Sequence record: PQ400055.1
Reading direction: 5' to 3' (one strand)
DNA: 64,000 nucleotides
Origin: a phage
The first letter of the stretch is position 1; each line of letters opens with the position of its first letter. Of the stretch, positions 18,270 to 53,992 are shown one piece after another. The translations under genes and the position numbers were made by a program. Below the pieces are notes generated by a model. That model worked only from the letters and a program-made list of their open reading frames with translations, was not told the origin of the DNA and did no database searches.

Positions 18270-18315
18270 AATTAGTCACCTCTATTGATTAGTTATTCAG
18301 AATATTAATTACAAA

Positions 18316-34484: not shown

Positions 34485-34697
34485 TTATAATGCACCATCG
34501 AGCAATTGCTCTAAGGTGTATCCTGAATAGTCTTTTTCAATCAGGATATATTTTCCTACTCGTTTAATACAACCACGCATTTCAACGTATTCTGCGTAGT
34601 TGATGGTGCGAGTTGTTCCATCTTCCAGTAATGCAGTACCGATTTCGTTAATGCGGTCATAAGTTACGTCGGTAATGATGATTTCGATGTTAGCCAT
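34485..34697 (-). CDS. small hypothetical early protein
   Basis: 70 aa ORF directly downstream of a PeSL-like cassette. Confidence 0.5.
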   Translation of the reverse strand: MANIEIIITDVTYDRINEIGTALLEDGTTRTINYAEYVEMRGCIKRVGKYILIEKDYSGYTLEQLLDGAL

Positions 34698-34768
34698 TTG
34701 ATACTCCTTAGTAGTTCGTTTCGGTATGGGTGTATTATGATATACACCATCTGTTATGTCAACAACTT
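34698..34768 (-). promoter_or_regulatory. PeSL-like early promoter cassette (TTGACA, 17 bp, CATAAT, then RBS)
   Basis: Minus-strand reading gives TTGACA -35 and CATAAT -10, then AGGAG RBS before ATG. Confidence 0.6.
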
Positions 34769-34948
34769 TTAGAACATTTTTGAAATTAATTCTGCTTTGA
34801 TTTCGCAGAGAACATCTAAAGATTTCTCGTCACCCGCTTTTGCTGCTTCTGCTTGCATTTTTGAAATGGCTTCAATGTCAGTGCAATTATAAGCCGCTTG
34901 AACTTTAGCGATTGCGATGATTGCCGATTCGATGGTTAAGTGTTTCAT
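34769..34948 (-). CDS. small hypothetical early protein (59 aa)
   Basis: Start placed at MKHLTIESAI.. after RBS AGGAGA; six-frame ORF to 35014 runs into promoter cassette. Confidence 0.5.
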   Translation of the reverse strand: MKHLTIESAIIAIAKVQAAYNCTDIEAISKMQAEAAKAGDEKSLDVLCEIKAELISKMF

Positions 34949-35020
34949 GTTTGATTCTCCTAGTTCGTTTCGGTATGTGTGTATTATAGGGGATCGATGA
35001 TCCCCTGTCAACAACTTTTT
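34949..35020 (-). promoter_or_regulatory. PeSL-like early promoter cassette
   Basis: TTGACAGGGGATCATCGATCCCCTATAAT on minus strand (palindromic spacer), then AGGAGA RBS. Confidence 0.7.
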
Positions 35021-35023
35021 TAG

Positions 35024-35539
35024 TTATTTTTTTAATTGCTCATCTTGCAATAGTGCAATCACATGCTGGCGATGTTCTTCCGATTGAGGCACACCGAAAA
35101 AGTTTGTTTTGTAGAAATACTCTAATCGGTCTTCTCGTGTGCTCTCTTCCATCATGATCGCGGGTAGTCCGAGATTTCGGAAACGTCGCTTTTCTGCTGG
35201 CGTAAAATCACTGTAATACAACATAGAATCATCATTACAAGCAATGCTAAACTCATCCTTCATAAAGGAGAATATTGCGTTTAAACGCTGTTTACCGTCC
35301 ACGATTTCGATCTCATAGCGAGAGCCATCATCAATCTTAGCCATTGCGATAGCACCAACCGGAAAATCATTAATCAGGTTTTCGATAAACATACGTTTGT
35401 TTTCGGTGTCCCATACCAAAGGACGCTGATAATCTGGGTTCATGTTGATATAGCCATCTTCTAACCACGCCTCATAAACAGAGATGACAAAGTTTTTAGT
35501 ATTGGTATAGTAACGGCGTTTAGGCGTTAAACGGTTCAT
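35024..35539 (-). CDS. DUF262/ParB-like nuclease-domain protein
   Basis: Motifs NPDYQRPLVW and IVDGKQRL resemble DUF262 (YQR..W; DGQQR) motifs. 171 aa. Confidence 0.5.
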   Translation of the reverse strand: MNRLTPKRRYYTNTKNFVISVYEAWLEDGYINMNPDYQRPLVWDTENKRMFIENLINDFPVGAIAMAKIDDGSRYEIEIVDGKQRLNAIFSFMKDEFSIACNDDSMLYYSDFTPAEKRRFRNLGLPAIMMEESTREDRLEYFYKTNFFGVPQSEEHRQHVIALLQDEQLKK

Positions 35540-35715
35540 AGTGTGCTTACCTTTTCAATATATGCGTCCGCATACTGGCGAATGCTCATTTCTTCTCGTA
35601 CTGCTGCTACAAATTCTTTCATGGATTCAAACCATTTGTAGGTGTCGCGATACATGACCAACTCTTCCCAAGTAAGATCGCAAATCTCTTTACCATGTAG
35701 TTGTGGTGTTATCAT
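35536..35715 (-). CDS. small hypothetical protein (59 aa)
   Basis: MITPQLHGKEICDLTWEEL..; RBS AGGAGA; stop overlaps next start (ATGA). Below six-frame track cutoff. Confidence 0.4.
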   Translation of the reverse strand: MITPQLHGKEICDLTWEELVMYRDTYKWFESMKEFVAAVREEMSIRQYADAYIEKVSTL

Positions 35716-36050
35716 AATATAGTTCTCCTGAATGGATCATCACGTAAATCAATATCTTTTAAGAACTCATCCCATGAATAGCGGATATTGTTCTTAATTC
35801 TCCAGATAAGCGCAGGGATTGAACGTTCTCCCATCTGGAAGTATGGATCATATGATCCGTATGCCCAATATGCTACTACAATTCCACAATCAGCGCAATA
35901 GTATTCTATTTCACTTGCTGGCGACCAAAGTCCATCAATATGATCGGTGATCTTGCTTTCGATGTTATGGCTATGACAATCAGGGCAACGGATGCAATGA
36001 CCTTGTTTATCGTAATTTGACGTTAGCGAATACTTAAACAATCTCATCAT
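35712..36050 (-). CDS. zinc-finger protein (C4)
   Basis: CIRCPDC..CADCG motifs; 112 aa; 4-nt overlap with both neighbours. Confidence 0.5.
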   Translation of the reverse strand: MMRLFKYSLTSNYDKQGHCIRCPDCHSHNIESKITDHIDGLWSPASEIEYYCADCGIVVAYWAYGSYDPYFQMGERSIPALIWRIKNNIRYSWDEFLKDIDLRDDPFRRTIL

Positions 36051-36763
36051 AGATCCTTATTTGCTTCAAATACTGCCTTTGCGAATCCTCGCGGGGTCAG
36101 TGACCTGATAGTCTTTGTTTTCGTTCCTTTCCCGCCTAGCTTAGAATGCTGTTTACTGTACCCTTTATTAATCTGCAACGGTTTCTTTTCTGGCATTATA
36201 AAGCCTTGTCCGGTCCATAAGCAAGTCTTTTTCGGGTACATATCACGGGCGGCGATATACTCAGGAAAAGTAGGATGTTTATCATCTTCCGGCAAATAAC
36301 CGCCATATTCCCACGGGTGGAACATGTAATCAGGCTTACGCCACATGCTAGAGATAACGCTTACAGGATTCTCTATCATGTAGGGAACTCCTAGCCATTC
36401 ACCCAAATAAGCGGTTATTTTAGCTGCCCTTACATCATGAACTTGAATCAATGGTCCTTGTTCTCGTTTCTTTCGTTCAAAGTGTGCAGCGCCACTAACA
36501 GCTAAATTGGTGCACGGTGGGAATGCAAAGATAATATCCGGTTTCCCCCATTCAAGGTCCATTGCTCTTTCTAGCCAGTTCAAATCAATCCATGTGTTTA
36601 CATAGGTAATGTTTGGGTGTTCAAATCTGGTATTATACTTTTTGTATGTGCCGTGGTCGCCATCGTCAGCATTAAAGCAGATCACCTTATGACCTGCTTT
36701 AGCCCATTCTAGCCCCATTATCCCCGATCCGTCAAAGTTACAGAATATTAATTTTTGTTTCAT
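36047..36763 (-). CDS. compact C5-cytosine methyltransferase-like protein
   Basis: Motif I-like FDGSGIMG, motif IV DIIFAFPPC, motif VI MIENPVSV, C-terminal IRSLTPRGFA (RxLTPRE-like). Only 238 aa, no obvious target-recognition domain. Confidence 0.45.
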   Translation of the reverse strand: MKQKLIFCNFDGSGIMGLEWAKAGHKVICFNADDGDHGTYKKYNTRFEHPNITYVNTWIDLNWLERAMDLEWGKPDIIFAFPPCTNLAVSGAAHFERKKREQGPLIQVHDVRAAKITAYLGEWLGVPYMIENPVSVISSMWRKPDYMFHPWEYGGYLPEDDKHPTFPEYIAARDMYPKKTCLWTGQGFIMPEKKPLQINKGYSKQHSKLGGKGTKTKTIRSLTPRGFAKAVFEANKDL

Positions 36764-37005
36764 ATACGCCCCTTTAATCCAACACAGATTTTAGAAGGTT
36801 CTTTGCCGTGCCACATTAAGTAAAGTCCGTTAATGCGGCCTTGTTTTGTATATGATTCTTTTCTGATCTTCTTATAGTGTCGTGTTTCCTCAACTGATTG
36901 TTTAGAATACCAATCATAAAGGAAGAGGCACAAAGGCCAACCATTAGCGGCCTTAATGCAGTTATTAAGAAATTCCTTATTGCGTTTAATTAATTTTCTT
37001 TTCAC
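36760..37005 (-). CDS. hypothetical protein
   Basis: 81 aa; 4-nt overlaps imply translational coupling in an operon. Confidence 0.45.
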   Translation of the reverse strand: MKRKLIKRNKEFLNNCIKAANGWPLCLFLYDWYSKQSVEETRHYKKIRKESYTKQGRINGLYLMWHGKEPSKICVGLKGRI

Positions 37006-37253
37006 GCTGCCCCCATTGGTTTGATAGTAACAGAATCTAAAAGACCTTTGTTAGCCAGTTCGCGGCAAGTTTTCAGATCCGCAACTTCCCAGCCAGCCGC
37101 AATCAGGTTATCAATGAGGCTGTTAGCAACTTCTTCGCTCATGAAAGAGCACTGTTTGCCGATGGTGTAGCGTACACGCTGTAATTTCAGTTTACGGAAG
37201 CCTTTAACGTTCAGGTCTTTAGCGATTTTCTTTGCGGTTTCGATGTTAGCCAT
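37002..37253 (-). CDS. hypothetical protein
   Basis: 83 aa; first gene after a PeSL-like promoter. Confidence 0.5.
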   Translation of the reverse strand: MANIETAKKIAKDLNVKGFRKLKLQRVRYTIGKQCSFMSEEVANSLIDNLIAAGWEVADLKTCRELANKGLLDSVTIKPMGAA

Positions 37254-37330
37254 TGTTTGATTCTCCTAAGTGGTATCTCGTCTTGATGGTTGTATTGTAG
37301 GGGAGTTATCCTCCCCTGTCAATACTTTTT
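37254..37330 (-). promoter_or_regulatory. PeSL-like early promoter cassette
   Basis: TTGACAGGGGAGGATAACTCCCCTACAAT on minus strand, then AGGAGA. Confidence 0.65.
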
Positions 37331-37336
37331 ATAAAA

Positions 37337-37504
37337 TTATTTGTTAATTTCTGGTGCGTTGCTAGGATAGTAACCTTCTTTAACACCCAGATATTTTGCA
37401 ACCATTCCTACAATCTTCTGTGCTACTACAATGTCAAATTTCAGATAATCTTCGCCGTGGGTTTCAATGATATATGCTTCACATGCTGCTTTAGTCTCGA
37501 ACAT
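37337..37504 (-). CDS. small protein (55 aa), copy 1 of a duplicated gene
   Basis: MFETKAACEAYIIETHGEDYLKFDIVVAQKIVGMVAKYLGVKEGYYPSNAPEINK; near-identical paralog at 40622..40789. Confidence 0.55.
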   Translation of the reverse strand: MFETKAACEAYIIETHGEDYLKFDIVVAQKIVGMVAKYLGVKEGYYPSNAPEINK

Positions 37505-37580
37505 TTTGATTCTCCTATTTCGTTTCGGTATGTGTGTATTATAGGGGATCTCCCGATCCCCGTCAACAACTTTTTTAAAA
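37505..37580 (-). promoter_or_regulatory. PeSL-like early promoter cassette
   Basis: TTGACGGGGATCGGGAGATCCCCTATAAT on minus strand, then AGGAGA. Confidence 0.65.
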
Positions 37581-37862
37581 TTATTCGTGATTAGTTTCGA
37601 TGTTGTACATTTTGCACCAGTTCAGCCAATCGCCCAGATCTTGATAGTTGATGCTTTTATCTGCTGCCATCGTTTTTGTCTTGATACCCATATGTGCGTT
37701 ATGAGTAAGCATTTTTACAGTGAACTCAATTTTATCGCCTTTAGCTTTAACATCAACCAGTTTGGTCCACTGGCTACCAGCGCCGCGAATGTTCATACCA
37801 ACGATGTTTCCGATGTATGCTTCTTTGTTTTTCAGGATTTCGGTTGCTTTGATGAATTTCAT
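37581..37862 (-). CDS. hypothetical early protein
   Basis: 93 aa ORF downstream of a PeSL-like cassette. Confidence 0.5.
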   Translation of the reverse strand: MKFIKATEILKNKEAYIGNIVGMNIRGAGSQWTKLVDVKAKGDKIEFTVKMLTHNAHMGIKTKTMAADKSINYQDLGDWLNWCKMYNIETNHE

Positions 37863-37932
37863 TTTTGATTCTCCAGTTCGTTTCGGTATGTGTGTATTAT
37901 GCTATGTTCTTACTTTGGTGTCAACAACTTTT
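37863..37932 (-). promoter_or_regulatory. PeSL-like early promoter cassette
   Basis: TTGACA..17 bp..CATAAT on minus strand, then GGAGA. Confidence 0.6.
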
Positions 37933-38202
37933 TTAGATATTTTCAGAAATAAATTTTAAAACTTGACGTAAATGTTTCTCATCTTTGATAGTCGCCGGAA
38001 GTTCTTCTTTTACTTCCTGTGCAAGATAGATATTTCCGTTCCAAGTGAAAGATCCGTCTTCGTTTACGCGATAGCTGAACATCCACTCGCAATCATTTTC
38101 GATTTCATATACACACAGAAGGGTGTAATCGTTAAAGCTATTGATTTCAAGGTCGAAGCCGTGACGTTTTGCAAAGTTGGTAGTGGTTTTAGTCAGTGCC
38201 AT
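37933..38202 (-). CDS. hypothetical early protein
   Basis: 89 aa ORF. Confidence 0.5.
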   Translation of the reverse strand: MALTKTTTNFAKRHGFDLEINSFNDYTLLCVYEIENDCEWMFSYRVNEDGSFTWNGNIYLAQEVKEELPATIKDEKHLRQVLKFISENI

Positions 38203-38280
38203 TGTTTGATTCTCCTAAGTGGTATCTCGTTTCGATGGGTGTATTATGCTATAGGCGTGATCTGGTGTCAACAACTTTTT
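38203..38280 (-). promoter_or_regulatory. PeSL-like early promoter cassette
   Basis: TTGACA..CATAAT on minus strand, then AGGAGA. Confidence 0.6.
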
Positions 38281-38295
38281 TAATTTTTTGGAAAT

Positions 38296-38322
38296 AAAAA
38301 AGCCGACACTAAGGTCGGCTAA
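38296..38322 (-). terminator. rho-independent terminator (minus)
   Basis: AGCCGACCTTAGTGTCGGCT hairpin with T-run on minus strand. Confidence 0.6.
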
Positions 38323-38327
38323 TAAAA

Positions 38328-38636
38328 TCATTTAGACAAGTAATCATTCTGTGCAATACGGTCGGCGTATGCTGGTGTTATGTCAATCGCCAGCACTTTA
38401 ACGCGTGCTTTCTTGCGACCTGGGTTTTCTCGTAACCAGTGCTCATGACCGTGAACATTTTTATACTTTGATGCTTCTTCAAATGTACGGATCGGGCCTG
38501 GATAATCTGCGTAAAGGATCTCTAGGTCTTCGGTGATGTAAAAATATACATCATAATTACTGTTCTCTAGTTTAAGCAGAGACTTTCGGAACATTGGGAG
38601 ATTTTCGCGGGTAAATTCAAAGATATTATCTTTCAT
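38328..38636 (-). CDS. HxHW-motif small protein family, member A
   Basis: ..YDVYFYITEDLEILYADY..HGHEHWL..KVLAIDI; 102 aa. Confidence 0.55.
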   Translation of the reverse strand: MKDNIFEFTRENLPMFRKSLLKLENSNYDVYFYITEDLEILYADYPGPIRTFEEASKYKNVHGHEHWLRENPGRKKARVKVLAIDITPAYADRIAQNDYLSK

Positions 38637-38690
38637 AGTATTATCCTCAATAGTTTGATGAAAAGGGGTGGGGGCTTAACGCCCCGTATA

Positions 38691-38978
38691 TTAAAACAGT
38701 CCTTCCTGTACACCGTAGTAGAGTTCATCGCTGATAATTTCATTAATGCGACGGTGTGCATATTCCTGATTTGCGAAGTTATCAGCAAGTTCTACTTTAG
38801 TTTCTCCGTCATGAGTCCATTTAGTGATAACTTTACCATCTGCAAATTTGAAGTTGAACTCTTTAGCTACTGCATCGCGTACCAGACGTGCGAACTTGTT
38901 ATTACGGATTGCATTATCGGTTTCGTGTGCAGCGTGAGCGAATTTGTTAACTTTCAGAGTGATAGTAATGTATGCCAT
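38691..38978 (-). CDS. hypothetical protein, paralog of 41985..42296
   Basis: Shared ..R.AVAKEFN.K.. core with the 42 kb paralog. Confidence 0.5.
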   Translation of the reverse strand: MAYITITLKVNKFAHAAHETDNAIRNNKFARLVRDAVAKEFNFKFADGKVITKWTHDGETKVELADNFANQEYAHRRINEIISDELYYGVQEGLF

Positions 38979-39058
38979 AATTTGATTCTCCTAGTTAGAA
39001 AGTGTATCTCGTTTCGATGGGTGTATTATGCTATACACCCGATCTTATGTCAACACTT
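38979..39058 (-). promoter_or_regulatory. PeSL-like early promoter cassette
   Basis: TTGACA..CATAAT on minus strand, then AGGAGA. Confidence 0.6.
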
Positions 39059-39059
39059 T

Positions 39060-39353
39060 TTATAAAATAATTTTTTGATATTTTTCTATGATGTTTGTGT
39101 AATCCACATCAACCGCTATCACCGTTGCTTCGAATCCACCGTTTAGCCAATGGCTATGATCATGATCGTGAAAGAAACCAAGACCAGTACGAAGACCTTC
39201 TTTATATTCGGCGCGTACATTTAGATCATCATCGATAAACAGATAAAACCATGAATTTTTACTAGGATTGATGATACAACCTTTCAGATTAGGGAGAATA
39301 TCACGACTAAGAATAAACTTATCACCTACTTTGAACATAATATTAGTCCTCAT
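39060..39353 (-). CDS. HxHW-motif small protein family, member B
   Basis: ..WFYLFIDDDLNV..HDHSHWLNGG..TVIAVDV; likely start at MFKVGDK (39338). Confidence 0.55.
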   Translation of the reverse strand: MRTNIMFKVGDKFILSRDILPNLKGCIINPSKNSWFYLFIDDDLNVRAEYKEGLRTGLGFFHDHDHSHWLNGGFEATVIAVDVDYTNIIEKYQKIIL

Positions 39354-39663
39354 TTATAAGGTCAAACCAATTGTTTTTCGCATAATGCTTAATGCGTGCT
39401 TGATCTGCTTCCGCTGGTGATAGATTCCATGCAACCACTACAACTTCTGACGCATCGTCATCCGTTTCTGATACCCAATGATTGTGATTCATACAGTTAT
39501 TTGCGATCGAGTGAGCAAATGATTTCATCACTGGAGACGTATAATCATAGTAACGGATTTTCAGATTTTCATCAACGTACAAATAGATCGTATAAGGTTT
39601 ATATTCAGTAACCAGTAACAGACAGTTACGCAATTCTGGGAAAATCTTTTTAGTTAATTTCAT
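39343..39663 (-). CDS. HxHW-motif small protein family, member C
   Basis: ..YTIYLYVDENLKIRYYDY..HNHWVSETD..VVVVAW; start set at MKLTKK with GAGGA RBS; six-frame ORF to 39744 is N-extended. Confidence 0.5.
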   Translation of the reverse strand: MKLTKKIFPELRNCLLLVTEYKPYTIYLYVDENLKIRYYDYTSPVMKSFAHSIANNCMNHNHWVSETDDDASEVVVVAWNLSPAEADQARIKHYAKNNWFDLINED

Positions 39664-39664
39664 T

Positions 39665-39904
39665 TTATAATCCTCGGTCGCGGCTATAGTACACGGTACG
39701 CCATACAATTTCATGTTTCGTGTCGCTCCAGCACACGATCTCATTTACTCTTAAATCTTTGTTATCAACAAAAGATGAACATTGTGACGCTTCTTTCATC
39801 ATTTTATCTGCTGTTTTCTCATCAAATACAGCACAGATTTCTTTATACACTCGATAATCTTTGAATTGACTCTGAATACCCATAATTAACACCATTCCAA
39901 CCAA
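39665..39904 (-). CDS. small protein, tandem paralog pair member 1
   Basis: SQFKDYRVYKEICAVFDEKTADKMMKEASQCSSF parallels the neighbour's SKFKEYKAYQQILRVYTPEFAEKMMEDASKCPSF. Confidence 0.5.
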   Translation of the reverse strand: MVGMVLIMGIQSQFKDYRVYKEICAVFDEKTADKMMKEASQCSSFVDNKDLRVNEIVCWSDTKHEIVWRTVYYSRDRGL

Positions 39905-40106
39905 TTGTTTTTGAGAAAACGTTTATCCACTGTTGAGTGTAACATGTTTCTTTCCATGATACAATACGAGTAGAATAATGGTTTTTGTTTCCAGAAAAGG
40001 ACGGGCATTTTGATGCATCTTCCATCATCTTTTCGGCGAACTCTGGTGTGTATACTCGCAGGATCTGTTGATATGCTTTGTATTCTTTAAATTTGCTCAT
40101 AATCAT
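39843..40106 (-). CDS. small protein, tandem paralog pair member 2
   Basis: See neighbour; 87 aa. Confidence 0.5.
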   Translation of the reverse strand: MIMSKFKEYKAYQQILRVYTPEFAEKMMEDASKCPSFSGNKNHYSTRIVSWKETCYTQQWINVFSKTIGWNGVNYGYSESIQRLSSV

Positions 40107-40365
40107 TCACTACCTTATCAGCTTCTTTTGTTGTTTTTACATCAACTGCGATAACTCGTAAAGGTTCGTCATGGTTCCACCAGTGGTCATGAATATCAGC
40201 TTGTGATTTATCACCAAAGGAATCACGAATATCATTTTTACATTTATAGCTAATGTGACCTTCATAGTCAACATAAAGGTAATTATCGAAAATCGGCGTT
40301 TTTAAGATCATACCGAAAAATCTTTCTTTGTGTGTCTTATCCAGCGTTGCAGTAATTCGCATCAT
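40087..40365 (-). CDS. HxHW-motif small protein family, member D
   Basis: ..NYLYVDYEGHISY..IHDHWWNHDE..RVIAVDV. Confidence 0.55.
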   Translation of the reverse strand: MMRITATLDKTHKERFFGMILKTPIFDNYLYVDYEGHISYKCKNDIRDSFGDKSQADIHDHWWNHDEPLRVIAVDVKTTKEADKVVNDYEQI

Positions 40366-40377
40366 AATATATTCCTC

Positions 40378-40557
40378 TTAGAAAGGGATGGTCATTTCTT
40401 GAGCTTGTACGTTCTCGTTAGGATTAAACTTCATCCAGCCGATATTGTCTACCAGCATATGCACATTTTTATCATATCCTACGTGGGTAGTCAATACTGT
40501 ATGTGCTTTACCTTCAATGATGAGTTCCATGTACTTCTGAACTTCGATAGCTTTCAT
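40378..40557 (-). CDS. small hypothetical protein (59 aa)
   Basis: MKAIEVQKYMELIIEGKAHTVLTTHVGYDKNVHMLVDNIGWMKFNPNENVQAQEMTIPF; directly downstream of a PeSL-like cassette. Below six-frame track cutoff. Confidence 0.45.
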   Translation of the reverse strand: MKAIEVQKYMELIIEGKAHTVLTTHVGYDKNVHMLVDNIGWMKFNPNENVQAQEMTIPF

Positions 40558-40620
40558 TTTGATTCTCCGTTTGTTGTCTTGATGGGAGTATCTTACTACT
40601 CCCTTTAATCATTGTCAACT
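40558..40620 (-). promoter_or_regulatory. PeSL-like early promoter cassette
   Basis: TTGACA, spacer with GGGAGTAGTAAGATACTCCC stem, TAAGAT -10, GGAGA RBS on minus strand. Confidence 0.55.
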
Positions 40621-40621
40621 A

Positions 40622-40789
40622 TTATTTGTTAATTTCCGGTGCGTTGCTCGGATAGTAACCTTCTTTAACACCCAGATATTTTGCAACCATTCCGGTGATC
40701 TTCTGTGCTACTACGATATCGAATTTCAGGTAGTCTTCACCGTGGTTTGCTACAATGTATGCTTCGCATTCTGCTTTAGTCTGGAACAT
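40622..40789 (-). CDS. small protein (55 aa), copy 2 of a duplicated gene
   Basis: MFQTKAECEAYIVANHGEDYLKFDIVVAQKITGMVAKYLGVKEGYYPSNAPEINK; paralog of 37337..37504. Confidence 0.55.
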   Translation of the reverse strand: MFQTKAECEAYIVANHGEDYLKFDIVVAQKITGMVAKYLGVKEGYYPSNAPEINK

Positions 40790-40858
40790 TTTTGATTCTC
40801 CTATCTCGTTGGTATGTGTGCATTATAGGGGATCACCGATCCCCTGTCAACAACTTTA
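40790..40858 (-). promoter_or_regulatory. PeSL-like early promoter cassette
   Basis: TTGACAGGGGATCGGTGATCCCCTATAAT on minus strand, then AGGAGA. Confidence 0.65.
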
Positions 40859-41149
40859 TAATGCTTTATATGCGTATTTCATAAATTTGTCTGCCACTTC
40901 ATTGGCATGTTCAGATTCTACGCCTGATTCGAGAACAATAGCTAGGTCGGTTTCGTCATTCCCGCCGTACCAATGATTTGATGTTCGATTTTTTTCAATT
41001 GGAAATTGGTCACTTTTATCTGTGCGACAAAATACATCTAAATGCTCGTCGATGTAAAAGATCCAATCTTCATAAAGAATAACGGTATTAGCCAGATTTT
41101 TATTGCCTTCAACGAAAGGTTCGGCTACAAACAAATTAGTATGTTCCAT
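40856..41149 (-). CDS. HxHW-motif small protein family, member E (divergent)
   Basis: Start set at MEHTNLF with GAGGA RBS; ..ILYEDWIFYIDEHLDV..SNHWYGGND..LAIVLES. Confidence 0.45.
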   Translation of the reverse strand: MEHTNLFVAEPFVEGNKNLANTVILYEDWIFYIDEHLDVFCRTDKSDQFPIEKNRTSNHWYGGNDETDLAIVLESGVESEHANEVADKFMKYAYKAL

Positions 41150-41165
41150 AGTATTTTCCTCAAAA

Positions 41166-41357
41166 TTATACAGCTTCGTAAACTTCCCAATGTCCAACAC
41201 CAGCACGCTTAACGAAAAGGTTTTCTTTTATGTTATTCATAAACGTCTGGATGGATTTAATGCGGTTTGAAGGTTTCCATTCTTCGTTGGTATTGCGTCG
41301 ATACATCATAACATTACCAGTTCGCTTATATTCAGCAACCATTTTAAGACCACACAT
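41166..41357 (-). CDS. small hypothetical protein
   Basis: 63 aa ORF with GAGGA RBS, downstream of a promoter-like cassette. Confidence 0.45.
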   Translation of the reverse strand: MCGLKMVAEYKRTGNVMMYRRNTNEEWKPSNRIKSIQTFMNNIKENLFVKRAGVGHWEVYEAV

Positions 41358-41430
41358 AATATTATCCTCAATTTGTGGGAGAGTATTACCCTCCCGATTA
41401 TTGTTATACTACATTACGCAAAATGGCGTG
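41358..41430 (-). promoter_or_regulatory. PeSL-like promoter cassette (divergent copy)
   Basis: TTGACA, 17 bp, TAGTAT, then GGGAGGGTAATACTCTCCC stem-loop and GAGGA RBS on minus strand; -35 lies in the 3' end of the upstream gene. Confidence 0.5.
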
Positions 41431-41716
41431 TCAATGCTTCTTTTGCTGTTCCGCTAAGATTCTCGATCTCTCCTGGCATAACATCAACCGCAAGAACTTC
41501 TACAACATCCTCTGATCCTAACCAGTGAGTATGACCTTTGTAGAACTTGATATCCCATTTATCGCTATCGCTAGCCCACCACACATCACCGTCGATAAAG
41601 TTGATGTAAAGCACACTACGCCACATTGAATTAATTACTTTCAATACTGCGCCTTTCATCTCTTCCACGGTGTGGTCTTCCATTTTGAAGACCTCACCTA
41701 CCTGAACTTTTGCCAT
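41414..41716 (-). CDS. HxHW-motif small protein family, member F
   Basis: ..VLYINFIDGDVWW..GHTHWLGSED..EVLAVDV. Confidence 0.55.
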   Translation of the reverse strand: MAKVQVGEVFKMEDHTVEEMKGAVLKVINSMWRSVLYINFIDGDVWWASDSDKWDIKFYKGHTHWLGSEDVVEVLAVDVMPGEIENLSGTAKEALTRHFA

Positions 41717-41733
41717 TTAGTCACCTCTCTTTA

Positions 41734-41913
41734 TTACATAACAATCACGCCAGCCGTTGAAAGTTGATGTTTCAACTGAGCATTTTCTGCTACCGTCAAA
41801 TCAATGATTTCTTGTGACGCTGCAATCATATAGCCATTGGTGATATTGTTTTGCATCAGTTCAATGGTTTCTTCGTTGTAGCGGATTTTAGCGATGATTT
41901 CGTTGAAGTTCAT
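41734..41913 (-). CDS. small hypothetical early protein (59 aa)
   Basis: Start placed at MNFNEIIAKI after AGGAGA; six-frame ORF to 41979 runs into promoter cassette. Confidence 0.5.
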   Translation of the reverse strand: MNFNEIIAKIRYNEETIELMQNNITNGYMIAASQEIIDLTVAENAQLKHQLSTAGVIVM

Positions 41914-41984
41914 AATTGATTCTCCTAGTTCGTTTCGGTATGTGTGTAGTATAGGGGATCGGTGATCCCCTGTCAACAACTTTT
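41914..41984 (-). promoter_or_regulatory. PeSL-like early promoter cassette
   Basis: TTGACAGGGGATCACCGATCCCCTATACT on minus strand, then AGGAGA. Confidence 0.65.
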
Positions 41985-42296
41985 TTAAAGTTTTTCCATG
42001 ATAACGGTCATAATTACATCTTCTGCGCGAGCGGTCAGATTATCAGCGTCAGCATGTGGGCGGCTGGTTGTTACAGAGATAACACCGTTGCGCACTGGTT
42101 TGATGTTGATATCAAGATGATCCGCGAAACGTTCGCCAGTTACAGAATGAATTTTGGTGTTAAATTCTTTTGCCAGTGCCTTGCGAACTTCACGAATCAG
42201 GGTAGCGTTTTTCAGTTGGTTCTCCGCGCTCATGGTCTTCTGGGTGTTCATGGTTCCGTCGAAGTCAATCATTGGCAGCGTTACGATGTATTTCAT
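41985..42296 (-). CDS. hypothetical protein, paralog of 38691..38978
   Basis: Start placed at MKYIVTLP; six-frame ORF to 42356 is N-extended into the cassette. Confidence 0.5.
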   Translation of the reverse strand: MKYIVTLPMIDFDGTMNTQKTMSAENQLKNATLIREVRKALAKEFNTKIHSVTGERFADHLDINIKPVRNGVISVTTSRPHADADNLTARAEDVIMTVIMEKL

Positions 42297-42380
42297 TTTT
42301 GATTCTCCGTTTAAGAAAGTGTGTTTCGTTTTGATGTGTGTAGTATAGGGGATCACCGATCCCCTGTCAACAACTTTTTG
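42297..42380 (-). promoter_or_regulatory. PeSL-like early promoter cassette
   Basis: TTGACAGGGGATCGGTGATCCCCTATACT on minus strand, then GGAGA. Confidence 0.65.
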
Positions 42381-42382
42381 AA

Positions 42383-42859
42383 TTATTTTTCTTGATGCTC
42401 GCGATCGTACTTTTCGAAATAAAATTCTACTGGCTGGTCGTGGATTGACAGCAAGCCAAAGCGTTTAGCCGCTCGCAACCCCATATTGCGCTGAATGTAC
42501 TTCTGGAAGTTCTCGCGTATACACTTACGCCAGTATTCTAAGCCCATACAGCTTTTATAAAGATTGCATTGCACACACGCCGGATTCATGTTATCAAGTA
42601 TATCATGTTCCGGTTTATGCATTCCTACAACCTTATACTTCCACGATCCATCATCATTACGGGCAATTCGTCCATTTTCATCATAGACTACCTTTGAGCG
42701 TCGCAATACTGGTTTGATGTGGTCCGCGTGCCAGCGATCCCCTAGTTCCTCGCCACAATAGGCACAACGTCCACCGTATTTCATTTTCAGGATCTGGCGT
42801 TGCTCTTTCTTTGACAATTTTTTAGGTTTAGGGGCTTTCGCCCCTTCATTATCACACAT
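42383..42859 (-). CDS. HNH endonuclease (free-standing, homing-endonuclease-like)
   Basis: CAYCG..WHADHIKP..N..CVQCN: HNH zinc-finger nuclease motif. 158 aa. Confidence 0.7.
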   Translation of the reverse strand: MCDNEGAKAPKPKKLSKKEQRQILKMKYGGRCAYCGEELGDRWHADHIKPVLRRSKVVYDENGRIARNDDGSWKYKVVGMHKPEHDILDNMNPACVQCNLYKSCMGLEYWRKCIRENFQKYIQRNMGLRAAKRFGLLSIHDQPVEFYFEKYDREHQEK

Positions 42860-49763: not shown

Positions 49764-50162
49764 TTAACTTTCCAGAATATCGCGAGCTTCGTTACGCTCC
49801 TTGATGATTTTCAGGACAAATTCCAGTTTTTCTTTGTTCAGCGTTCCATTTTCCATTGCTTCTTTGACGGTAAACACTCCGCCACCTTGCCCGTATACAG
49901 TGACAGTGATTTCACCTAACATCGTGGTATGAAAACCGCCAATTTTCGGTGATTCGAAAGAAACAATTACCTCGCGGACAGTATTACCGTCGTTGATTTC
50001 TGAGAGGGTAATGTCGTTTTTGTAGGCGGTTGCTTTAACCATACGGATCAGCATAGTCTGATCTGGGGAGATGGTCATTTTGTCCATTGCATGTTGCAAT
50101 GCAGCGTAACCGAAAACTTTAACGAAGTCCAGAACGTCTTTGCGAGTTTGAAATTTAATCAT
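49764..50162 (-). CDS. hypothetical early protein
   Basis: 132 aa ORF downstream of a PeSL-like cassette. Confidence 0.5.
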   Translation of the reverse strand: MIKFQTRKDVLDFVKVFGYAALQHAMDKMTISPDQTMLIRMVKATAYKNDITLSEINDGNTVREVIVSFESPKIGGFHTTMLGEITVTVYGQGGGVFTVKEAMENGTLNKEKLEFVLKIIKERNEARDILES

Positions 50163-50232
50163 CTTGATACTCCTTAGTTGTTTTGGTATGGGAGTATCTT
50201 ACTACTCCCGTGATATGCTGTCAACTGCTTTT
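50163..50232 (-). promoter_or_regulatory. PeSL-like early promoter cassette
   Basis: TTGACA, GGGAGTAGTAAGATACTCCC stem, TAAGAT -10, AGGAG RBS on minus strand. Confidence 0.55.
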
Positions 50233-50382
50233 TTATGCAACCGCAAACATCAACATTTGAACATTCTTGGCTGTCTGGCTTTCAAAGTTCTGACATTCTT
50301 TGATAATGTCCTCTACTTTCTCGCCGGAGATCTCCGCGTAAGTTTCGATTGCCATTTTCAGTACCGCGTCAAAGTTGTTCAT
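50233..50382 (-). CDS. small hypothetical protein (49 aa)
   Basis: MNNFDAVLKMAIETYAEISGEKVEDIIKECQNFESQTAKNVQMLMFAVA. Below six-frame track cutoff. Confidence 0.4.
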   Translation of the reverse strand: MNNFDAVLKMAIETYAEISGEKVEDIIKECQNFESQTAKNVQMLMFAVA

Positions 50383-50385
50383 TTG

Positions 50386-50458
50386 ATTCTCCTTAAAGTG
50401 TATTTCGTTTCGATGGGGGTATATTACTACCCCCGTTTCATGCTGTCAACTACTTTTT
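50386..50458 (-). promoter_or_regulatory. PeSL-like early promoter cassette
   Basis: TTGACA, 17 bp with GGGGGTAGTAATATACCCCC stem, TAATAT, AGGAGA on minus strand. Confidence 0.55.
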
Positions 50459-50669
50459 TAATGACAAGTTCGAATTTTGCTACCTTGCGTCCTCGTTTAT
50501 TGAAAGCAACCCACGGACGGTTTTCAATGTAGAACAATTCTTCACCAATAATGAATACTGGCTGATTGTAAAGGCGACCCATCAGGTCACGCTGGCGAAT
50601 GGTAGTAGATTCGTATACTTCGCCCACTACAAAGTGTTTGTTGATAGAGTCGGTGCAAGTAAATTTCAT
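50427..50669 (-). CDS. small hypothetical protein (80 aa)
   Basis: Start placed at MKFTCTDS; six-frame ORF to 50729 is N-extended into the cassette. Confidence 0.45.
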   Translation of the reverse strand: MKFTCTDSINKHFVVGEVYESTTIRQRDLMGRLYNQPVFIIGEELFYIENRPWVAFNKRGRKVAKFELVIKKVVDSMKRG

Positions 50670-50740
50670 TTTGATTCTCCTTTGTTTTCTTGATGGGAGT
50701 ATCTTACTACCCCCGTTATTCAGTGTCAACTACTTTTTAC
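50670..50740 (-). promoter_or_regulatory. PeSL-like early promoter cassette
   Basis: TTGACA..GGGGGTAGTAAGATACTCCC..AGGAGA on minus strand. Confidence 0.55.
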
Positions 50741-50955
50741 TTGTTGTATTCATTCCACCATTGGGCGAGCTTATCAATTATTTTTGTGTTTCTATCCAAC
50801 TTCTCCCACCGTTTTCTAGGGTTTATCAACCGGAATAGGTAAGGTGTACTTGTTAAGTGAACTCGGTCAATGTAGTGATTGATGTACTGCTTTTCGATTC
50901 TAAGTTTCATCTTTTTACGATGAAAATATGCAATGACTTGTTCTTCTGTTTCCAT
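50737..50955 (-). CDS. small hypothetical protein
   Basis: 72 aa ORF. Confidence 0.45.
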   Translation of the reverse strand: METEEQVIAYFHRKKMKLRIEKQYINHYIDRVHLTSTPYLFRLINPRKRWEKLDRNTKIIDKLAQWWNEYNK

Positions 50956-51012
50956 ATGTTCCTCCGTTTCGATGTGCGTATTATGCTATGGCAAGATCAG
51001 ATTGTCAACACC
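50956..51012 (-). promoter_or_regulatory. PeSL-like early promoter cassette (short)
   Basis: TTGACA..17 bp..CATAAT on minus strand, then GGAGG. Confidence 0.55.
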
Positions 51013-51018
51013 CAATAA

Positions 51019-51047
51019 CAAAAAAAGTCGCCACTATGGGCGACTTT
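51019..51047 (-). terminator. rho-independent terminator (minus)
   Basis: AGTCGCCCATAGTGGCGACT hairpin with TTTTTT on minus strand, immediately followed by the next promoter cassette. Confidence 0.65.
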
Positions 51048-52699: not shown

Positions 52700-53347
52700 T
52701 CACATATTCCTCATTTTACAGTTATCAAAGTGCCATCGTAGAGAATTGCCTTTATTGGTAATTTTACCGCAATGCGGACAAGGATCTGCCATTGTTGCTT
52801 CCTTTGTCCTTTGTGCAATCAGCTTTCTCATTTCCTCACTATGTGGTATTCCTTTAGTTGGCGATGGTTTCCCAAACATAGGATTTTTACTGCCCATTCT
52901 AGCTTTTGAAATGTTTAACGCGTGCTCCTTTGTTTTTGGCTTACGCATTTTAGCTTTTGTCTCTTCTGATTTCAACACACCTTTCGAAGATTCGCTAATC
53001 TTTCTTCGCGTTTCTTCTTTCATAGGTTTGCCCTTTCTTTGTTCAGAGATAAGTACCCTAGCTTGTTCATATACCCTAGACGAAACAATATAATCTCTTT
53101 TATTGGTCTTCGCATTTTTTGCTAAACACATCATACCAAATGCTTGTGCCATAGGTCCACCATGAATTTTTGCTAGCAGATGATGAATCACGAAATGTTC
53201 TTTTGCTGTCAACTCAATCAGGTTATCAACTTCATCACCGCCACCCATAGATCGCGGTAAAATATGATGTGTTTCCTTATACCCTTCAACGGTTCCTCTC
53301 GTCTTTGCTTTTTCTATGATTGCGTCATGTAGTTTTTGTAAGTTCAT
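52700..53347 (-). CDS. HNH homing endonuclease, MobE-like
   Basis: HNH motif THHILPRSMGGGDEVDNLIELTAKEHFVIHH plus NUMOD3-like repeats and C-terminal CxxC; between nrdA and nrdB, as mobE is in T4. Confidence 0.7.
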   Translation of the reverse strand: MNLQKLHDAIIEKAKTRGTVEGYKETHHILPRSMGGGDEVDNLIELTAKEHFVIHHLLAKIHGGPMAQAFGMMCLAKNAKTNKRDYIVSSRVYEQARVLISEQRKGKPMKEETRRKISESSKGVLKSEETKAKMRKPKTKEHALNISKARMGSKNPMFGKPSPTKGIPHSEEMRKLIAQRTKEATMADPCPHCGKITNKGNSLRWHFDNCKMRNM

Positions 53348-53757: not shown

Positions 53758-53924
53758 TATCCTACAACCTCAAAGCATTTATCATCAGGAAGAATAGCCC
53801 ATTCTACGCCATATTCATCCTCAACGTAGTAGCAAGCCCAATCATGTCGAGCATCATATACATCACCGACAACAAAGCTATCAGCTAGCTCAAAATCTAC
53901 AGCAACACATTTTAATTTGGTCAT
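53757..53924 (-). CDS. small hypothetical protein (55 aa)
   Basis: Start placed at MTKLKCVAVDF; six-frame ORF to 53987 is N-extended into the cassette. Confidence 0.45.
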   Translation of the reverse strand: MTKLKCVAVDFELADSFVVGDVYDARHDWACYYVEDEYGVEWAILPDDKCFEVVG

Positions 53925-53990
53925 AATAAAATCCTCACTTGTTTTTGATGGTTGTATTATAGCGGGGATTTCTCCCCGCGTCAACACTTA
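53925..53990 (-). promoter_or_regulatory. PeSL-like early promoter cassette
   Basis: TTGACGCGGGGAGAAATCCCCGCTATAAT on minus strand, directly after nrdA stop. Confidence 0.6.
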
Positions 53991-53992
53991 TT

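What the first reader, a model, noticed from the sequence alone, without database searches (positions are those of the whole stretch)
34698..42380. About 19 copies of a promoter/stem-loop/RBS cassette front the small early genes (PeSL-like)
Upstream of nearly every minus-strand small gene is a roughly 70-bp element reading (on the minus strand) AAAAGTTGTTGACA, a 17-bp spacer that is often a perfect palindrome (GGGGATC..GATCCCC), TATAAT, ACACACATACCGAAACGA, AGGAGAATCAAA, ATG. It combines a sigma70-consensus promoter, a potential operator or RNA hairpin, and a uniform 5' UTR with SD. Copies also occur at 50163..51012, 53925..53990, 58787..58852 and 59644..59705. This matches my recollection of the promoter-early stem-loop cassettes described for RB49-group T4-like phages, proposed to mediate modular gene shuffling; I have not verified that here. 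Variants carry a different stem (GGGAGTAGTAAGATACTCCC).
Basis: partly seen in the sequence, partly recalled or inferred. Interest (0 to 1): 0.5.

Follow-up and report, generated by a model that had tools for sequence, protein, structure and literature searches.

The report
Known PeSL promoter cassettes in Krischvirus
The repeated 70-90 bp promoter/hairpin/ribosome-site cassettes are real, but they are the already published "PeSL" early-promoter cassettes of RB49-type T4-like coliphages, sitting in the same variable genome region where they were first described.

Summary
The window is a Krischvirus (RB49-like T4-type coliphage): 99% identical to phage kaaroe and 93% to Phi1. The repeat is real. 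There are 18 clear copies plus one degenerate copy, all on the gene strand. Eleven lie in 34698-42380, not 19, and they front 11 of the 25 genes there, not nearly every one. Each copy has an A-tract, TTGACA, a 16-17 nt spacer, T/CATAAT, an invariant CAT at the expected start site, a short A-rich unstructured leader and usually GGAGAATCAAA before the ATG. Thirteen carry a stable hairpin: seven in the spacer and six across the -10 box. Three have a canonical terminator just upstream instead, and three have neither. The span equals Phi1 ORF185-ORF212, the region where Arbiol et al. (2010) defined PeSLs. Two copies are orthologues of elements tested there for promoter or terminator activity. Phage Brandy lacks two cassette-flanked genes and has chimeric cassettes at the junctions, which supports recombinational shuffling. 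The only possibly new point is that the conserved GGAGAAUCAAA block matches 10 of 11 positions of the RegB/S1 cleavage consensus. This suggests, but does not show, a built-in mRNA shut-off site.

The parts
42294..42384 (-). Cassette, class A (spacer hairpin GGGGATCggtGATCCCC, -10 TATACT, long leader). It fronts the 103-aa ORF (Phi1 ORF210 orthologue) and is the orthologue of the PeSL whose stem-loop was tested as a terminator.
   Evidence: (-12.8 kcal/mol, z -3.0)
41911..41990 (-). Cassette, class A (GGGGATCaccGATCCCC, whose loop is the exact inversion of the one at 42370). It fronts a 4-gene unit (ORF209-206 orthologues).
   Evidence: -12.8, z -4.6
40787..40864 (-). Cassette, class A with perfect TTGACA-17-TATAAT. 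It fronts a 55-aa ORF and is the orthologue of Phi1 PeSL206/205 (promoter activity measured, about 13,000 Miller units).
40555..40632 (-). Cassette, class B2 (hairpin GGGAGTAgtaagaTACTCCC across the -10 TAAGAT). The upstream stop codon is 3 nt before the -35. It fronts a 6-gene unit.
   Evidence: -12.2, z -3.9
38976..39067 (-). Cassette, class B1 (hairpin GGGTGTATagcataATACACCC across the -10 CATAAT), with a long leader.
   Evidence: -13.8, z -4.7
38200..38285 (-). Cassette with no internal hairpin. A canonical terminator lies just upstream.
   Evidence: (-0.2)
38296..38320 (-). Intrinsic terminator (AGCCGACcttagtGTCGGCT + T6) immediately upstream of cassette 38271.
37860..37938 (-). Cassette with no hairpin and no upstream terminator. 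It fronts a 93-aa ORF (ORF193 orthologue).
   Evidence: (0 kcal)
37502..37580 (-). Cassette, class A shifted one base (TTGACG GGGATCgggaGATCCC). It fronts a 55-aa ORF (ORF191). RB49 and G2494 carry the extra ORF192 immediately upstream.
   Evidence: (-13.9)
37251..37336 (-). Cassette, class A with a different stem (GGGGAGgataaCTCCCC). It fronts a 6-gene unit that includes the Dcm-like methyltransferase.
   Evidence: -13.6, z -4.1
34946..35025 (-). Cassette, class A with perfect consensus hexamers. It fronts a 59-aa ORF.
   Evidence: -12.8, z -3.7
34695..34776 (-). Cassette, class B1 with a weakened stem (GGTGTAT/ATACACC). It fronts a 70-aa ORF, the last unit before the terminator at 34463-34479 and the alt gene.
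   Evidence: -8.1
50953..51022 (-). Cassette with no internal hairpin and a short leader (SD GGAGG). The canonical terminator at 51020-51047 abuts it upstream.
50667..50743 (-). Cassette, class B2 with one G.U pair (GGGGGTA/TACTCCC).
   Evidence: -11.0
50380..50463 (-). Cassette, class B2 (GGGGGTA/TACCCCC, a compensatory variant). The upstream ORF's last 10 codons read through its A-tract, -35 and spacer.
   Evidence: (-14.0)
50160..50238 (-). Cassette, class B2 (GGGAGTA/TACTCCC). It fronts a 132-aa ORF.
   Evidence: -11.9
53922..53998 (-). Cassette, class A with yet another stem (GCGGGGAgaaaTCCCCGC) and a different SD (GAGGA). It lies downstream of nrdA.
   Evidence: -15.1, z -5.6
58784..58859 (-). 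Divergent cassette (16-nt spacer, TATAAT, no stable hairpin). The upstream ORF's stop codon lies in its spacer.
59641..59712 (-). Divergent cassette (16-nt spacer) with the canonical terminator 59726-59751 upstream. With cassette 58845 it brackets a gene that is replaced in Phi1 and RB49.
18267..18385 (-). Marginal copy. It has the A-tract and TTGACA-16-TATAAT, but an unrelated 68-nt leader and no hairpin.
   Evidence: (E 0.037)

Best explanation
These are PeSLs (promoter-early stem-loops), the self-contained early-expression cassettes of RB49-type phages.

Step 1, transcription initiation. This rests on sequence here and on published experiments on orthologues. Right after infection, unmodified host sigma70 RNA polymerase binds the near-consensus TTGACA-17-T/CATAAT, helped by the A-tract at about -45 to -40. 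It starts at the A of the invariant CAT, 7 nt after the -10 box.

Step 2, translation (inferred). The transcript carries an 18-40 nt A-rich, nearly unstructured leader and a strong GGAG Shine-Dalgarno sequence, so the first gene of each unit is translated efficiently. Genes further along the unit follow by tight coupling.

Step 3, insulation. The GC-rich hairpin lies in the spacer or across the -10 box, and always ends before +1. It is therefore absent from the cassette's own mRNA and forms only in RNA arriving from the upstream unit. There it attenuates, terminates or caps that transcript, which insulates neighbouring units. This was shown by a reporter assay for one orthologue and is inferred for the rest. 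Where the hairpin is missing, an ordinary terminator often sits just upstream.

Step 4, recombination. The 70-90 bp of near-identity repeated every 0.2-2 kb is a substrate for the phage's general homologous recombination. Exchanges between copies delete, duplicate, insert or swap the flanked genes and leave one chimeric, still functional cassette. Chimeric junctions are shown here. Mini-circles are published for RB49 and Phi1.
For: - Identity of the region: 99.1% to phage kaaroe and 93% to Phi1 and GEC-3S, all Krischvirus. Gene-for-gene match to Phi1 ORF185-212.
- Published definition and experiments: promoter and terminator lacZ assays; the shuffling model.
- Orthology of 40850 and 42370 with the tested elements.
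- RB49 early-promoter consensus (T or C at -12, C-rich -3 to -1). [quoted passage not shown]
- Statistics.
- All 116 copies found in seven phage regions lie on the gene strand.
- Hairpins: 13 of 19 copies fold at -8 to -15 kcal/mol with z-scores of -1.9 to -5.6.
- Stems differ in sequence and position but keep pairing. Examples are GGGGATC/GATCCCC, GGGGAG/CTCCCC, GCGGGGA/TCCCCGC, GGGTGTAT/ATACACCC versus GGGGATAT/ATATCCCC, and GGGAGTA/TACTCCC versus GGGGGTA/TACCCCC. All 7 non-Watson-Crick pairs are G.T on the sense strand.
- Three stemless copies have canonical terminators just upstream.
- Leaders are A-rich and fold at a mean of -1.4 against -3.15 kcal/mol for shuffles.
- Recombination: Brandy lacks the ORF191 and ORF210 orthologues. 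Each junction is one cassette whose 5' part matches the upstream window copy and whose 3' part matches the downstream copy.
- Seven of 12 indel or replacement events against six relatives abut a cassette. P is 0.001 by base coverage and 0.046 by gene junctions.
- The Phi1 orthologue of 40850 carries the hairpin and -10 box of the 41976 type, which indicates conversion between copies.
Against: - The class A and B hairpins are followed by UAUAAU... or AUCGAAA..., not a U-tract. The terminator scan calls none of them on the sense strand. 'Terminator' therefore rests on one published reporter assay of one class A stem.
- Three copies have neither a hairpin nor an upstream terminator.
- Five of the 12 indels are not at cassettes (35539-35712, 36762-36989, 41716, 45396, 52687-53400). 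The cassettes are therefore one route of plasticity, not the only one, and the junction-based enrichment is only marginal.
- Copies are related by descent and conversion, so counts of copies and of covarying pairs are not independent events.
- No transcript data exist for this particular phage.
Confidence: 0.9

Rival explanations
1. The palindromes are DNA-level protein-binding sites rather than RNA hairpins. They could be an operator for a dimeric phage repressor that shuts early promoters off, or a target for a recombination protein.
For: [quoted passage not shown] Nearly all stems share a GGGG...CCCC core. Arbiol et al. themselves speculate that this core is a target for a DNA-binding protein. 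GATC is four-fold enriched in the spacers (13 against 3.3 expected), and the genus encodes Dam.
Against: - Stem sequence, loop length (3-6 nt) and position all vary while pairing is kept. Positions include the spacer in two registers, across the -10 box in two registers, and upstream of the -35.
- There are compensatory double changes, and G.T appears only on the sense strand. This points to selection on structure in sense RNA, not on a fixed recognition sequence.
- Six of 19 copies have no palindrome.
- The isolated stem-loop reduced downstream lacZ in E. coli with no phage protein present.
Confidence: 0.12
2. The hairpins do not stop RNA polymerase. They act after transcription as 3'-end caps or processing sites on read-through RNA, for example barriers to 3'-5' exonucleases or RNase III or RNase E landmarks. 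Each gene then yields a stable monocistronic-like mRNA.
For: There is no U-tract after the class A or B stems. The stems end just before the next unit's +1, so processing there would separate the units cleanly. True terminators are used at other cassettes, which shows the two designs are distinguishable.
Against: The only experiment, a class A stem placed between a strong promoter and lacZ, gave a reduction comparable to rrnB T1. That result is most simply explained by termination, although polarity or decay effects were not excluded.
Confidence: 0.25
3. The repeats are simply strong early promoters kept similar by selection for expression. Their link with indels is incidental, or depends on a dedicated integron-like site-specific recombinase rather than general homologous recombination.
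For: Five of 12 indels are not at cassettes, and enrichment by gene junction is marginal (P = 0.046). Intergenic sites are in any case the only places where indels are tolerated.
Against: - The Brandy junctions are clean chimeras with crossovers at different points inside the cassette: between the -10 box and the leader in one, and between the -35 and the hairpin loop in the other. This is what homologous exchange predicts, not a fixed site-specific cut.
- Mosaic combinations of hairpin type and leader type occur among copies.
- Mini-circles with crossovers at various positions are published.
- No integrase-like domain was found in the 10 ORFs scanned. That is only a small sample.
Confidence: 0.08

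Closest known systems
PeSLs (promoter-early stem-loops) of coliphages RB49 and Phi1 (Arbiol, Comeau, Kutateladze, Adamia, Krisch 2010, PMC2839356)
   Same: The genus, genome region and architecture are the same: an AT-rich tract holding the upstream stop codon, a sigma70-consensus -35/-10 pair, a G/C-run stem-loop mostly between the boxes or across the -10 box, and an SD plus ATG. Copies are 93-99% identical to the published orthologues. The association with ORFan indels and chimeric junctions is also the same.
   Different: Nothing substantive. This phage, which is closest to kaaroe, has its own set of flanked genes. It lacks ORF192, ORF195/196 and ORF211. It has an extra 59-aa ORF at 35536-35715 and a different gene between cassettes 59698 and 58845. 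Of the five published stem positions, only three are clearly seen in this window.
PeSL-like composite promoter/terminator motifs in T4/PST and KVP40/nt-1 (Comeau, Arbiol, Krisch 2014, PMC4122927), and the T-even internal-protein locus elements
   Same: The same idea applies: repeated early promoter plus stem-loop units flank variable genes and act as exchange points in hyperplastic regions.
   Different: Those elements are analogues, not homologues. They are built on T4-type early promoters (GTTTAC -35) with weaker, AT-richer stems. By blastn, the cassette sequence found here is confined to 59 Krischvirus records.
Lambdoid 'morons' and Botstein-Campbell linker sequences
   Same: Both are autonomously expressed gene units bracketed by their own promoter and terminator, and both involve modular exchange at conserved linkers.
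   Different: Moron flanks are not conserved repeats and are not thought to drive mobility. Here the regulatory element itself supplies the homology.
Integron gene cassettes
   Same: Both are arrays of small, mostly unknown-function genes that are gained and lost one at a time, with circular intermediates reported.
   Different: Integrons use an integrase and attC sites, with a single common promoter. Here no dedicated recombinase is known, each unit has its own promoter, and crossover points vary within the repeat.
T4 RegB/S1 cleavage sites in early-gene Shine-Dalgarno regions (Durand et al. 2006, PMC1702504)
   Same: GGAG lies in the SD of early genes and is followed by an A-rich 7-mer in single-stranded RNA. 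The cassette block GGAGAAUCAAA matches GGAGRAYARAA at 10 of 11 positions. RB49 has an active RegB whose own site is GGAUAAUAAAA.
   Different: The cassette has C at position 8, where T4 sites strongly prefer A. Cleavage has not been tested on any PeSL leader.

Membership tests
PeSL (Arbiol et al. 2010) | Near-consensus E. coli sigma70 -35 and -10 hexamers with about 17-bp spacing | tested here: met
   Seventeen of the 18 clear copies have TTGACA/TTGACG with a 16-17 nt spacer and 11-12 of 12 hexamer matches, or 10 of 12 for the TAAGAT/TAATAT class.
PeSL (Arbiol et al. 2010) | AT-rich tract upstream of the -35 that usually holds the stop codon of the upstream gene | tested here: met
   An A5-6 run lies 4 nt before the -35 in most copies. 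The upstream stop codon is 3-14 nt before the -35 in 13 copies.
PeSL (Arbiol et al. 2010) | Stable stem-loop, often polyG/polyC, in one of several positions relative to the promoter | tested here: met
   Seven copies have it in the spacer, six across the -10 box, and three have an upstream terminator hairpin. Three copies lack one.
PeSL (Arbiol et al. 2010) | Shine-Dalgarno sequence and start codon of the downstream gene at the 3' end, co-oriented with the gene | tested here: met
   All copies are followed within 24-46 nt by an SD plus ATG of an ORF of 49-269 aa. All lie on the gene strand.
PeSL (Arbiol et al. 2010) | Many copies per genome, concentrated in hyperplastic regions upstream of ORFans | tested here: met
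   Eleven copies lie in the alt-to-ligase region and four in the denA-to-nrdB region. Flanked proteins mostly have no Pfam match. The whole-genome count was not made, because only 64 kb is in hand.
PeSL (Arbiol et al. 2010) | Sequence orthology to the published Phi1/RB49 elements | tested here: met
   Side-by-side comparison of four elements with Phi1. The region shows 93-95% identity.
PeSL (Arbiol et al. 2010) | Gene gain and loss between relatives occurs by exchange between cassettes and leaves a chimeric cassette | tested here: met
   Two clean chimeric junctions in Brandy. Seven of 12 events abut cassettes. Five events do not.
PeSL (Arbiol et al. 2010) | Measured promoter activity, terminator/attenuator activity and mini-circle formation | not testable with these tools
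   Published only for the Phi1/RB49 orthologues. RB49 early 5' ends were mapped according to PMC1524935.
Canonical intrinsic (Rho-independent) terminator, considered for the hairpins | GC-rich hairpin immediately followed by a U-tract | tested here: not met
   Class A and B stems are followed by TATAAT... or ATCGAAA..., and none is called on the sense strand. The feature is met only by the separate terminators at 38296-38320, 51020-51047 and 59726-59751.
RegB/S1 endoribonuclease target site (T4 family) | GGA(G) followed by an A-rich 7-mer, consensus GGAGRAYARAA | tested here: inconclusive
   GGAGAATCAAA matches 10 of 11 positions, with C at position 8 where A is strongly preferred. The exact block is in 11 window copies and in 73 of 114 copies across seven phage regions.
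RegB/S1 endoribonuclease target site (T4 family) | Site lies in unstructured RNA, in the translation initiation region of early genes | tested here: met
   Leaders fold at about -1.4 kcal/mol. GGAG is in the SD of 15 of 18 cassette-fronted genes against 7 of 41 other genes, Fisher P = 2e-6.
RegB/S1 endoribonuclease target site (T4 family) | Phage encodes RegB, and cleavage is observed between G and A | not testable with these tools
   regB is annotated in RB49 (RB49p094) and reported active on its own GGAU SD. It is not in this window, and no cleavage data exist for PeSL leaders.

The most novel reading that the evidence does not exclude
The 3' module of the cassette may be more than a ribosome-binding site. 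The strictly conserved 11-mer GGAGAAUCAAA could be a RegB/S1 cleavage site. Each PeSL would then carry both the 'on' signal (a sigma70 promoter) and the 'off' signal (endonucleolytic removal of the SD). Any gene dropped behind a PeSL would automatically get a short, early-only burst of expression. This would matter in a genus that has no MotA/AsiA middle-mode switch. Neither the PeSL paper (0 mentions of RegB) nor the RegB papers read here make this link.
Probability: 0.35. Interest if true: 0.35.

Novelty: already known. Interest (0 to 1): 0.15.

Why it matters
As a discovery it adds little. PeSLs were defined in 2010 in this very region of sister phages, and database records such as GEC-3S already annotate these promoters.

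It has value as confirmation. A phage isolated and sequenced independently shows the same cassettes. Comparison with six relatives yields fresh, clean examples of cassette-by-cassette gene loss, which strengthens the case that short regulatory repeats drive modular gene shuffling in T4-like phages.

If the RegB reading held, PeSLs would be complete plug-and-play early-expression modules covering transcription start, insulation, translation and timed shut-off. That would interest phage engineers and help explain how orphan genes are safely trialled in these genomes.

Tried and rejected
- Rfam scan of the whole window at gathering thresholds gave 0 matches, so no described RNA family covers the hairpins or leaders.
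- GATC avoidance or special Dam logic. GATC is not depleted in the window (370 sites, O/E 1.06). The four-fold excess in spacers comes from the shared class A stem and was not pursued.
- Formal covariation count on the class B1 lineage gave only modest support. Two true compensatory pairs come from one lineage, and 6 of 500 shuffles reach the observed score. I rely on the explicit list of stem variants and do not claim statistical proof.
- Intrinsic-terminator reading of the class A and B stems was rejected on sequence grounds, because there is no U-tract. It is retained only on the published reporter result.
- Antisense-terminator idea. On the plus strand the T-run starts about 11 nt after the stem. 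One copy (37297-37319) was called by the scan, but this is not general.
- Operator reading is disfavoured because stem sequence and position vary while pairing is kept.
- Integron-like site-specific exchange is disfavoured because crossover points differ between junctions.
- Desplats et al. 2002 (RB49 5'-end mapping) could not be read. I cite it only through PMC1524935.
- Loci L003-L007 first seemed missing from the scripting folder. They were inside L002.fa, so mixed several subjects. This was redone properly.

Full report
**What the window is.** Bases 34600-42500 are 99.1% identical to Escherichia phage kaaroe and 93-98% identical to some 60 other phages. These include Phi1, GEC-3S, JSE-like phages and RB49, and every fetched relative whose taxonomy was shown is a Krischvirus, the RB49 group of T4-type coliphages. 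Comparison with the Phi1 and RB49 annotations places the finding between alt (window 32366-34417) and the HNH gene plus DNA ligase (42383-44354). This is Phi1 ORF185 to ORF212. All genes there are on the minus strand.

- TTGACA-N17-TATAAT with at most one mismatch occurs 17 times against 0.95 expected. All 17 are on the minus strand and 12 are cassette copies.
- A profile made from the copies finds 13 very strong hits (E of 1e-8 or better) and several weaker ones.
- Inspection of the weaker hits and a table of every copy give 18 clear cassettes and one degenerate copy at 18371.
- The aligned consensus is an A-run, GTTG, TTGACA, a 17-nt spacer, TATAAT, ACACACAT, (AC)CGAAACGA..., then (A)GGAGAATCAAA and ATG.
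- The 11-mer GGAGAATCAAA alone occurs 11 times against 0.03 expected.

Two statements in the finding are overstated.
- Only 11 copies lie in 34698-42380. 'About 19' is the total for the whole window.
- The cassettes front 11 of about 25 genes in that span. The other 14 follow in tightly packed operons of up to six genes. The GEC-3S record independently annotates 11 promoters for 25 CDS in the orthologous stretch.

Sixteen of the 18 copies are wholly intergenic. In two, the upstream ORF runs 12-23 nt into the cassette.

**Anatomy.** The hexamers are at or near the sigma70 consensus, with 10-12 of 12 matches. The -10 box begins with T or C, and the six bases after it are C-rich. [quoted passage not shown] An invariant CAT sits 6-8 nt after the -10 box. 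That is the expected position of -1/+1/+2.

Taking that A as the start, the leaders are 18-40 nt long and about 50% A. With the first 21 coding nucleotides they fold at only -1.4 kcal/mol on average, against -3.15 for shuffles.

**The hairpins.** Thirteen of the 19 copies contain a stable hairpin of -8 to -15 kcal/mol, with z-scores of -1.9 to -5.6. The groups are:
- Class A, seven copies, hairpin inside the spacer. Four have GGGGATC-N3-GATCCCC, one has the same stem shifted by one base, one has GGGGAG/CTCCCC and one has GCGGGGA/TCCCCGC.
- Class B, six copies, hairpin across the -10 box and the discriminator. B1 is GGGTGTAT/ATACACCC. B2 is GGGAGTA/TACTCCC or GGGGGTA/TACCCCC, in a register two bases away from B1.
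- Three stemless copies (38271, 51008, 59698) have a textbook terminator immediately upstream.
- Three copies (37924, 58845, 18371) have neither.

In both classes the 3' arm ends at or before -1. The hairpin is therefore not in the cassette's own transcript and can form only in RNA reading through from upstream, or in DNA.

**Selection on the hairpins.** I collected 116 copies from the window and six relatives, all on the gene strand, giving 74 unique core sequences.
- Stems differ in sequence and position while keeping pairing.
- They include double compensatory changes, such as GGGTGTAT/ATACACCC to GGGGATAT/ATATCCCC and GGGAGTA/TACTCCC to GGGGGTA/TACCCCC.
- All seven non-Watson-Crick pairs are G.T on the sense strand. 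These would be G.U in sense RNA but A.C in antisense RNA.
- A formal count on the B1 lineage gives modest support.

This favours selection on an RNA structure in sense transcripts. The number of independent events is small.

**What it is.** Arbiol et al. 2010 (PMC2839356) described these elements in Phi1 and RB49 and named them PeSLs. Their description covers sigma70-consensus promoters with an AT-rich upstream tract and a stem-loop often made of polyG/polyC. The stem-loop is most often between the boxes or across the -10 box. An SD and a start codon sit at the 3' end.

They counted about 50 per genome, mostly in hyperplastic regions upstream of ORFans. Their experiments used PeSL206/205 (promoter, about 13,000 Miller units), PeSL193/192, and the stem-loop of PeSL211/210 (lacZ reduction comparable to rrnB T1).

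Window copy 40850 is the orthologue of PeSL206/205. Copy 42370 is the orthologue of the PeSL upstream of ORF210. Every sequence-level defining feature of the family is met. The functional features cannot be tested with these tools. At blastn sensitivity the cassette sequence is confined to 59 Krischvirus records, with 7-11 places in each of the 30 records listed.

**Does it shuffle genes?** I compared the window with Phi1, RB49, LF73P4, G2494, Brandy and G2248. Twelve insertion, deletion or replacement events were found.

Seven events abut cassettes:
- ORF192 in RB49 and G2494, next to 37566.
- ORF195/196 in RB49 and Brandy, next to 38271.
- ORF211-type inserts next to 42370.
- Loss of ORF191 in Brandy.
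- Loss of ORF210 in Brandy.
- A replacement across the 50224-51008 cluster in G2494.
- Replacement of the gene between 59698 and 58845.

The two Brandy deletions are especially clear. Each junction is a single cassette whose upstream flank and 5' part match one window copy and whose 3' part matches the next. The crossover falls between the -10 box and the leader in one case, and between the -35 and the hairpin loop in the other.

Copies also convert one another. The Phi1 orthologue of 40850 carries the hairpin loop and -10 box of the 41976 type. The GGT and ACC loops are exact inversions of each other.

Five events are not at cassettes. They include a window-only 59-aa ORF (35536-35715) and a NUMOD3 homing-endonuclease-like gene (52700-53347). 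The enrichment is P = 0.001 by base coverage but only 0.046 when measured against gene junctions. The cassettes are an important route of plasticity, not the only one.

**Mechanism and rivals.** The best-supported account is the published one, and I give it 0.9 overall. It combines four steps:
- initiation by host sigma70 polymerase;
- an unstructured, strongly translated leader;
- a hairpin that acts on read-through RNA to insulate units;
- repeat-mediated homologous recombination.

The weakest step is 'terminator'. The class A and B stems lack a U-tract and are not called by the terminator scan, so a role as an RNA 3' cap or processing site remains open (0.25). A protein operator or recombination-protein site is possible but disfavoured by the variable stem sequence and position (0.12). 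A site-specific, integron-like mechanism is disfavoured by the variable crossover points (0.08).

**One possibly new point.** The conserved SD block GGAGAAUCAAA matches the RegB/S1 target consensus GGAGRAYARAA at 10 of 11 positions (PMC1702504).
- RB49 encodes RegB. It is reported to cleave its own GGAU SD in vivo, and that site reads GGAUAAUAAAA.
- GGAG is in the SD of 15 of 18 cassette-fronted genes but only 7 of 41 other genes on this strand, P = 2e-6.
- The internal genes mostly use GAGGA(A/T).
- The exact 11-mer is in 73 of 114 copies across seven phage regions.
- The PeSL paper does not mention RegB.

Against this, position 8 is C where T4 sites strongly prefer A. The copies are not independent, and a strong SD with an A-rich spacer is also simply good for translation. 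I rate it 0.35.

**Verdict.** The element is already known, and interest is low.

Noticed in passing
37337..37504 and 40622..40789 (minus strand): Two 55-aa ORFs are 89% identical paralogues (Phi1 ORF191 and ORF205 orthologues). Each is flanked by cassettes on both sides, so this looks like a duplicated cassette-plus-gene unit. Phage Brandy lacks the first one.
   Followed up: partly
38328..38636, 39060..39338, 39343..39714, 40087..40365, 41414..41716 (minus strand): A tandem family of 92-123 aa proteins shares an 'HW...V(I/L)AVDV'-like motif (blastp E from 1e-12 to 9e-4). Several are fronted not by a promoter but by a second repeated translation-start block, TTGAGGAnAATAyTATG. No Pfam match was obtained for the members tested.
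   Followed up: partly
about 41377..41434 and about 38660..38690 (minus strand): There are GC-rich hairpins with no strong promoter inside operons. GGGAG..CTCCC lies downstream of a weak TTGACA-17-TAGTAT. GGGGCgttaaGCCCC followed by CACCCCTTTT is annotated as a terminator in GEC-3S. The first may be a degenerate PeSL of the 'stem downstream of -10' subclass.
   Followed up: no
35536..35715 (minus strand): A 59-aa ORF (172 bp) is present in the window but absent from all six relatives compared. It is inserted between the ORF187 and ORF188 orthologues with overlapping start and stop codons and is not cassette-flanked. It has no Pfam match.
   Followed up: partly
52700..53347 (minus strand): A 215-aa ORF with a NUMOD3 motif (homing-endonuclease type) sits in a 712-bp insertion next to nrdB that is absent from Phi1 and RB49. 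It is a likely mobile endonuclease gene, unrelated to the cassettes.
   Followed up: partly
58834..59643 (minus strand): A 269-aa ORF with no Pfam match occupies the slot held by a 460-485 aa 'endonuclease' (ORF240) in Phi1 and RB49. The slot is bracketed by cassettes 59698 and 58845, so this is a cassette-flanked gene replacement.
   Followed up: partly
42342..42370, 40822..40850 versus 41948..41976: The hairpins GGGGATCggtGATCCCC and GGGGATCaccGATCCCC are exact reverse complements of each other. The Phi1 orthologue of 40850 has the ACC form together with the -10 box of the 41976 type. This points to conversion between copies, or to inversion of the palindrome.
   Followed up: partly
50427..50669 and 58834..59643 (minus strand): Cassette sequence is read as protein. 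The last 10 codons of the 80-aa ORF are the A-tract, -35 and spacer of cassette 50449. The 269-aa ORF stops inside the spacer of cassette 58845.
   Followed up: no
34682..34697 and 37238..37253 (minus strand): Two otherwise unrelated ORFs share their first 16 nt (ATGGCTAACATCGAAA, MANIE). Cassette homology therefore extends into the coding start in these two copies. This is a possible recombination scar or a favoured start context.
   Followed up: no
promoter spacers of cassettes (e.g. 34992, 34999, 40831, 40838, 42351, 42358): GATC occurs 13 times in the -35 to -10 spans against 3.3 expected, while GATC is not depleted genome-wide (O/E 1.06). The genus encodes a Dam methylase (RB49p063). Whether methylation state affects these promoters is unknown.
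   Followed up: partly
35024..35539 and 36047..36763 (minus strand): Behind cassette 37322 lies a six-gene unit. It includes a GmrSD_N/DUF262-type nuclease-domain protein (E 5e-20) and the Dcm-like cytosine methyltransferase annotated in relatives. It may be an anti-restriction or self-modification module.
   Followed up: no
whole window: GGCC is strongly under-represented (26 observed against 71 expected, O/E 0.36). AGCT, GCGC and GTAC are also low. This is consistent with restriction-site avoidance in a phage with unmodified cytosine.
   Followed up: no
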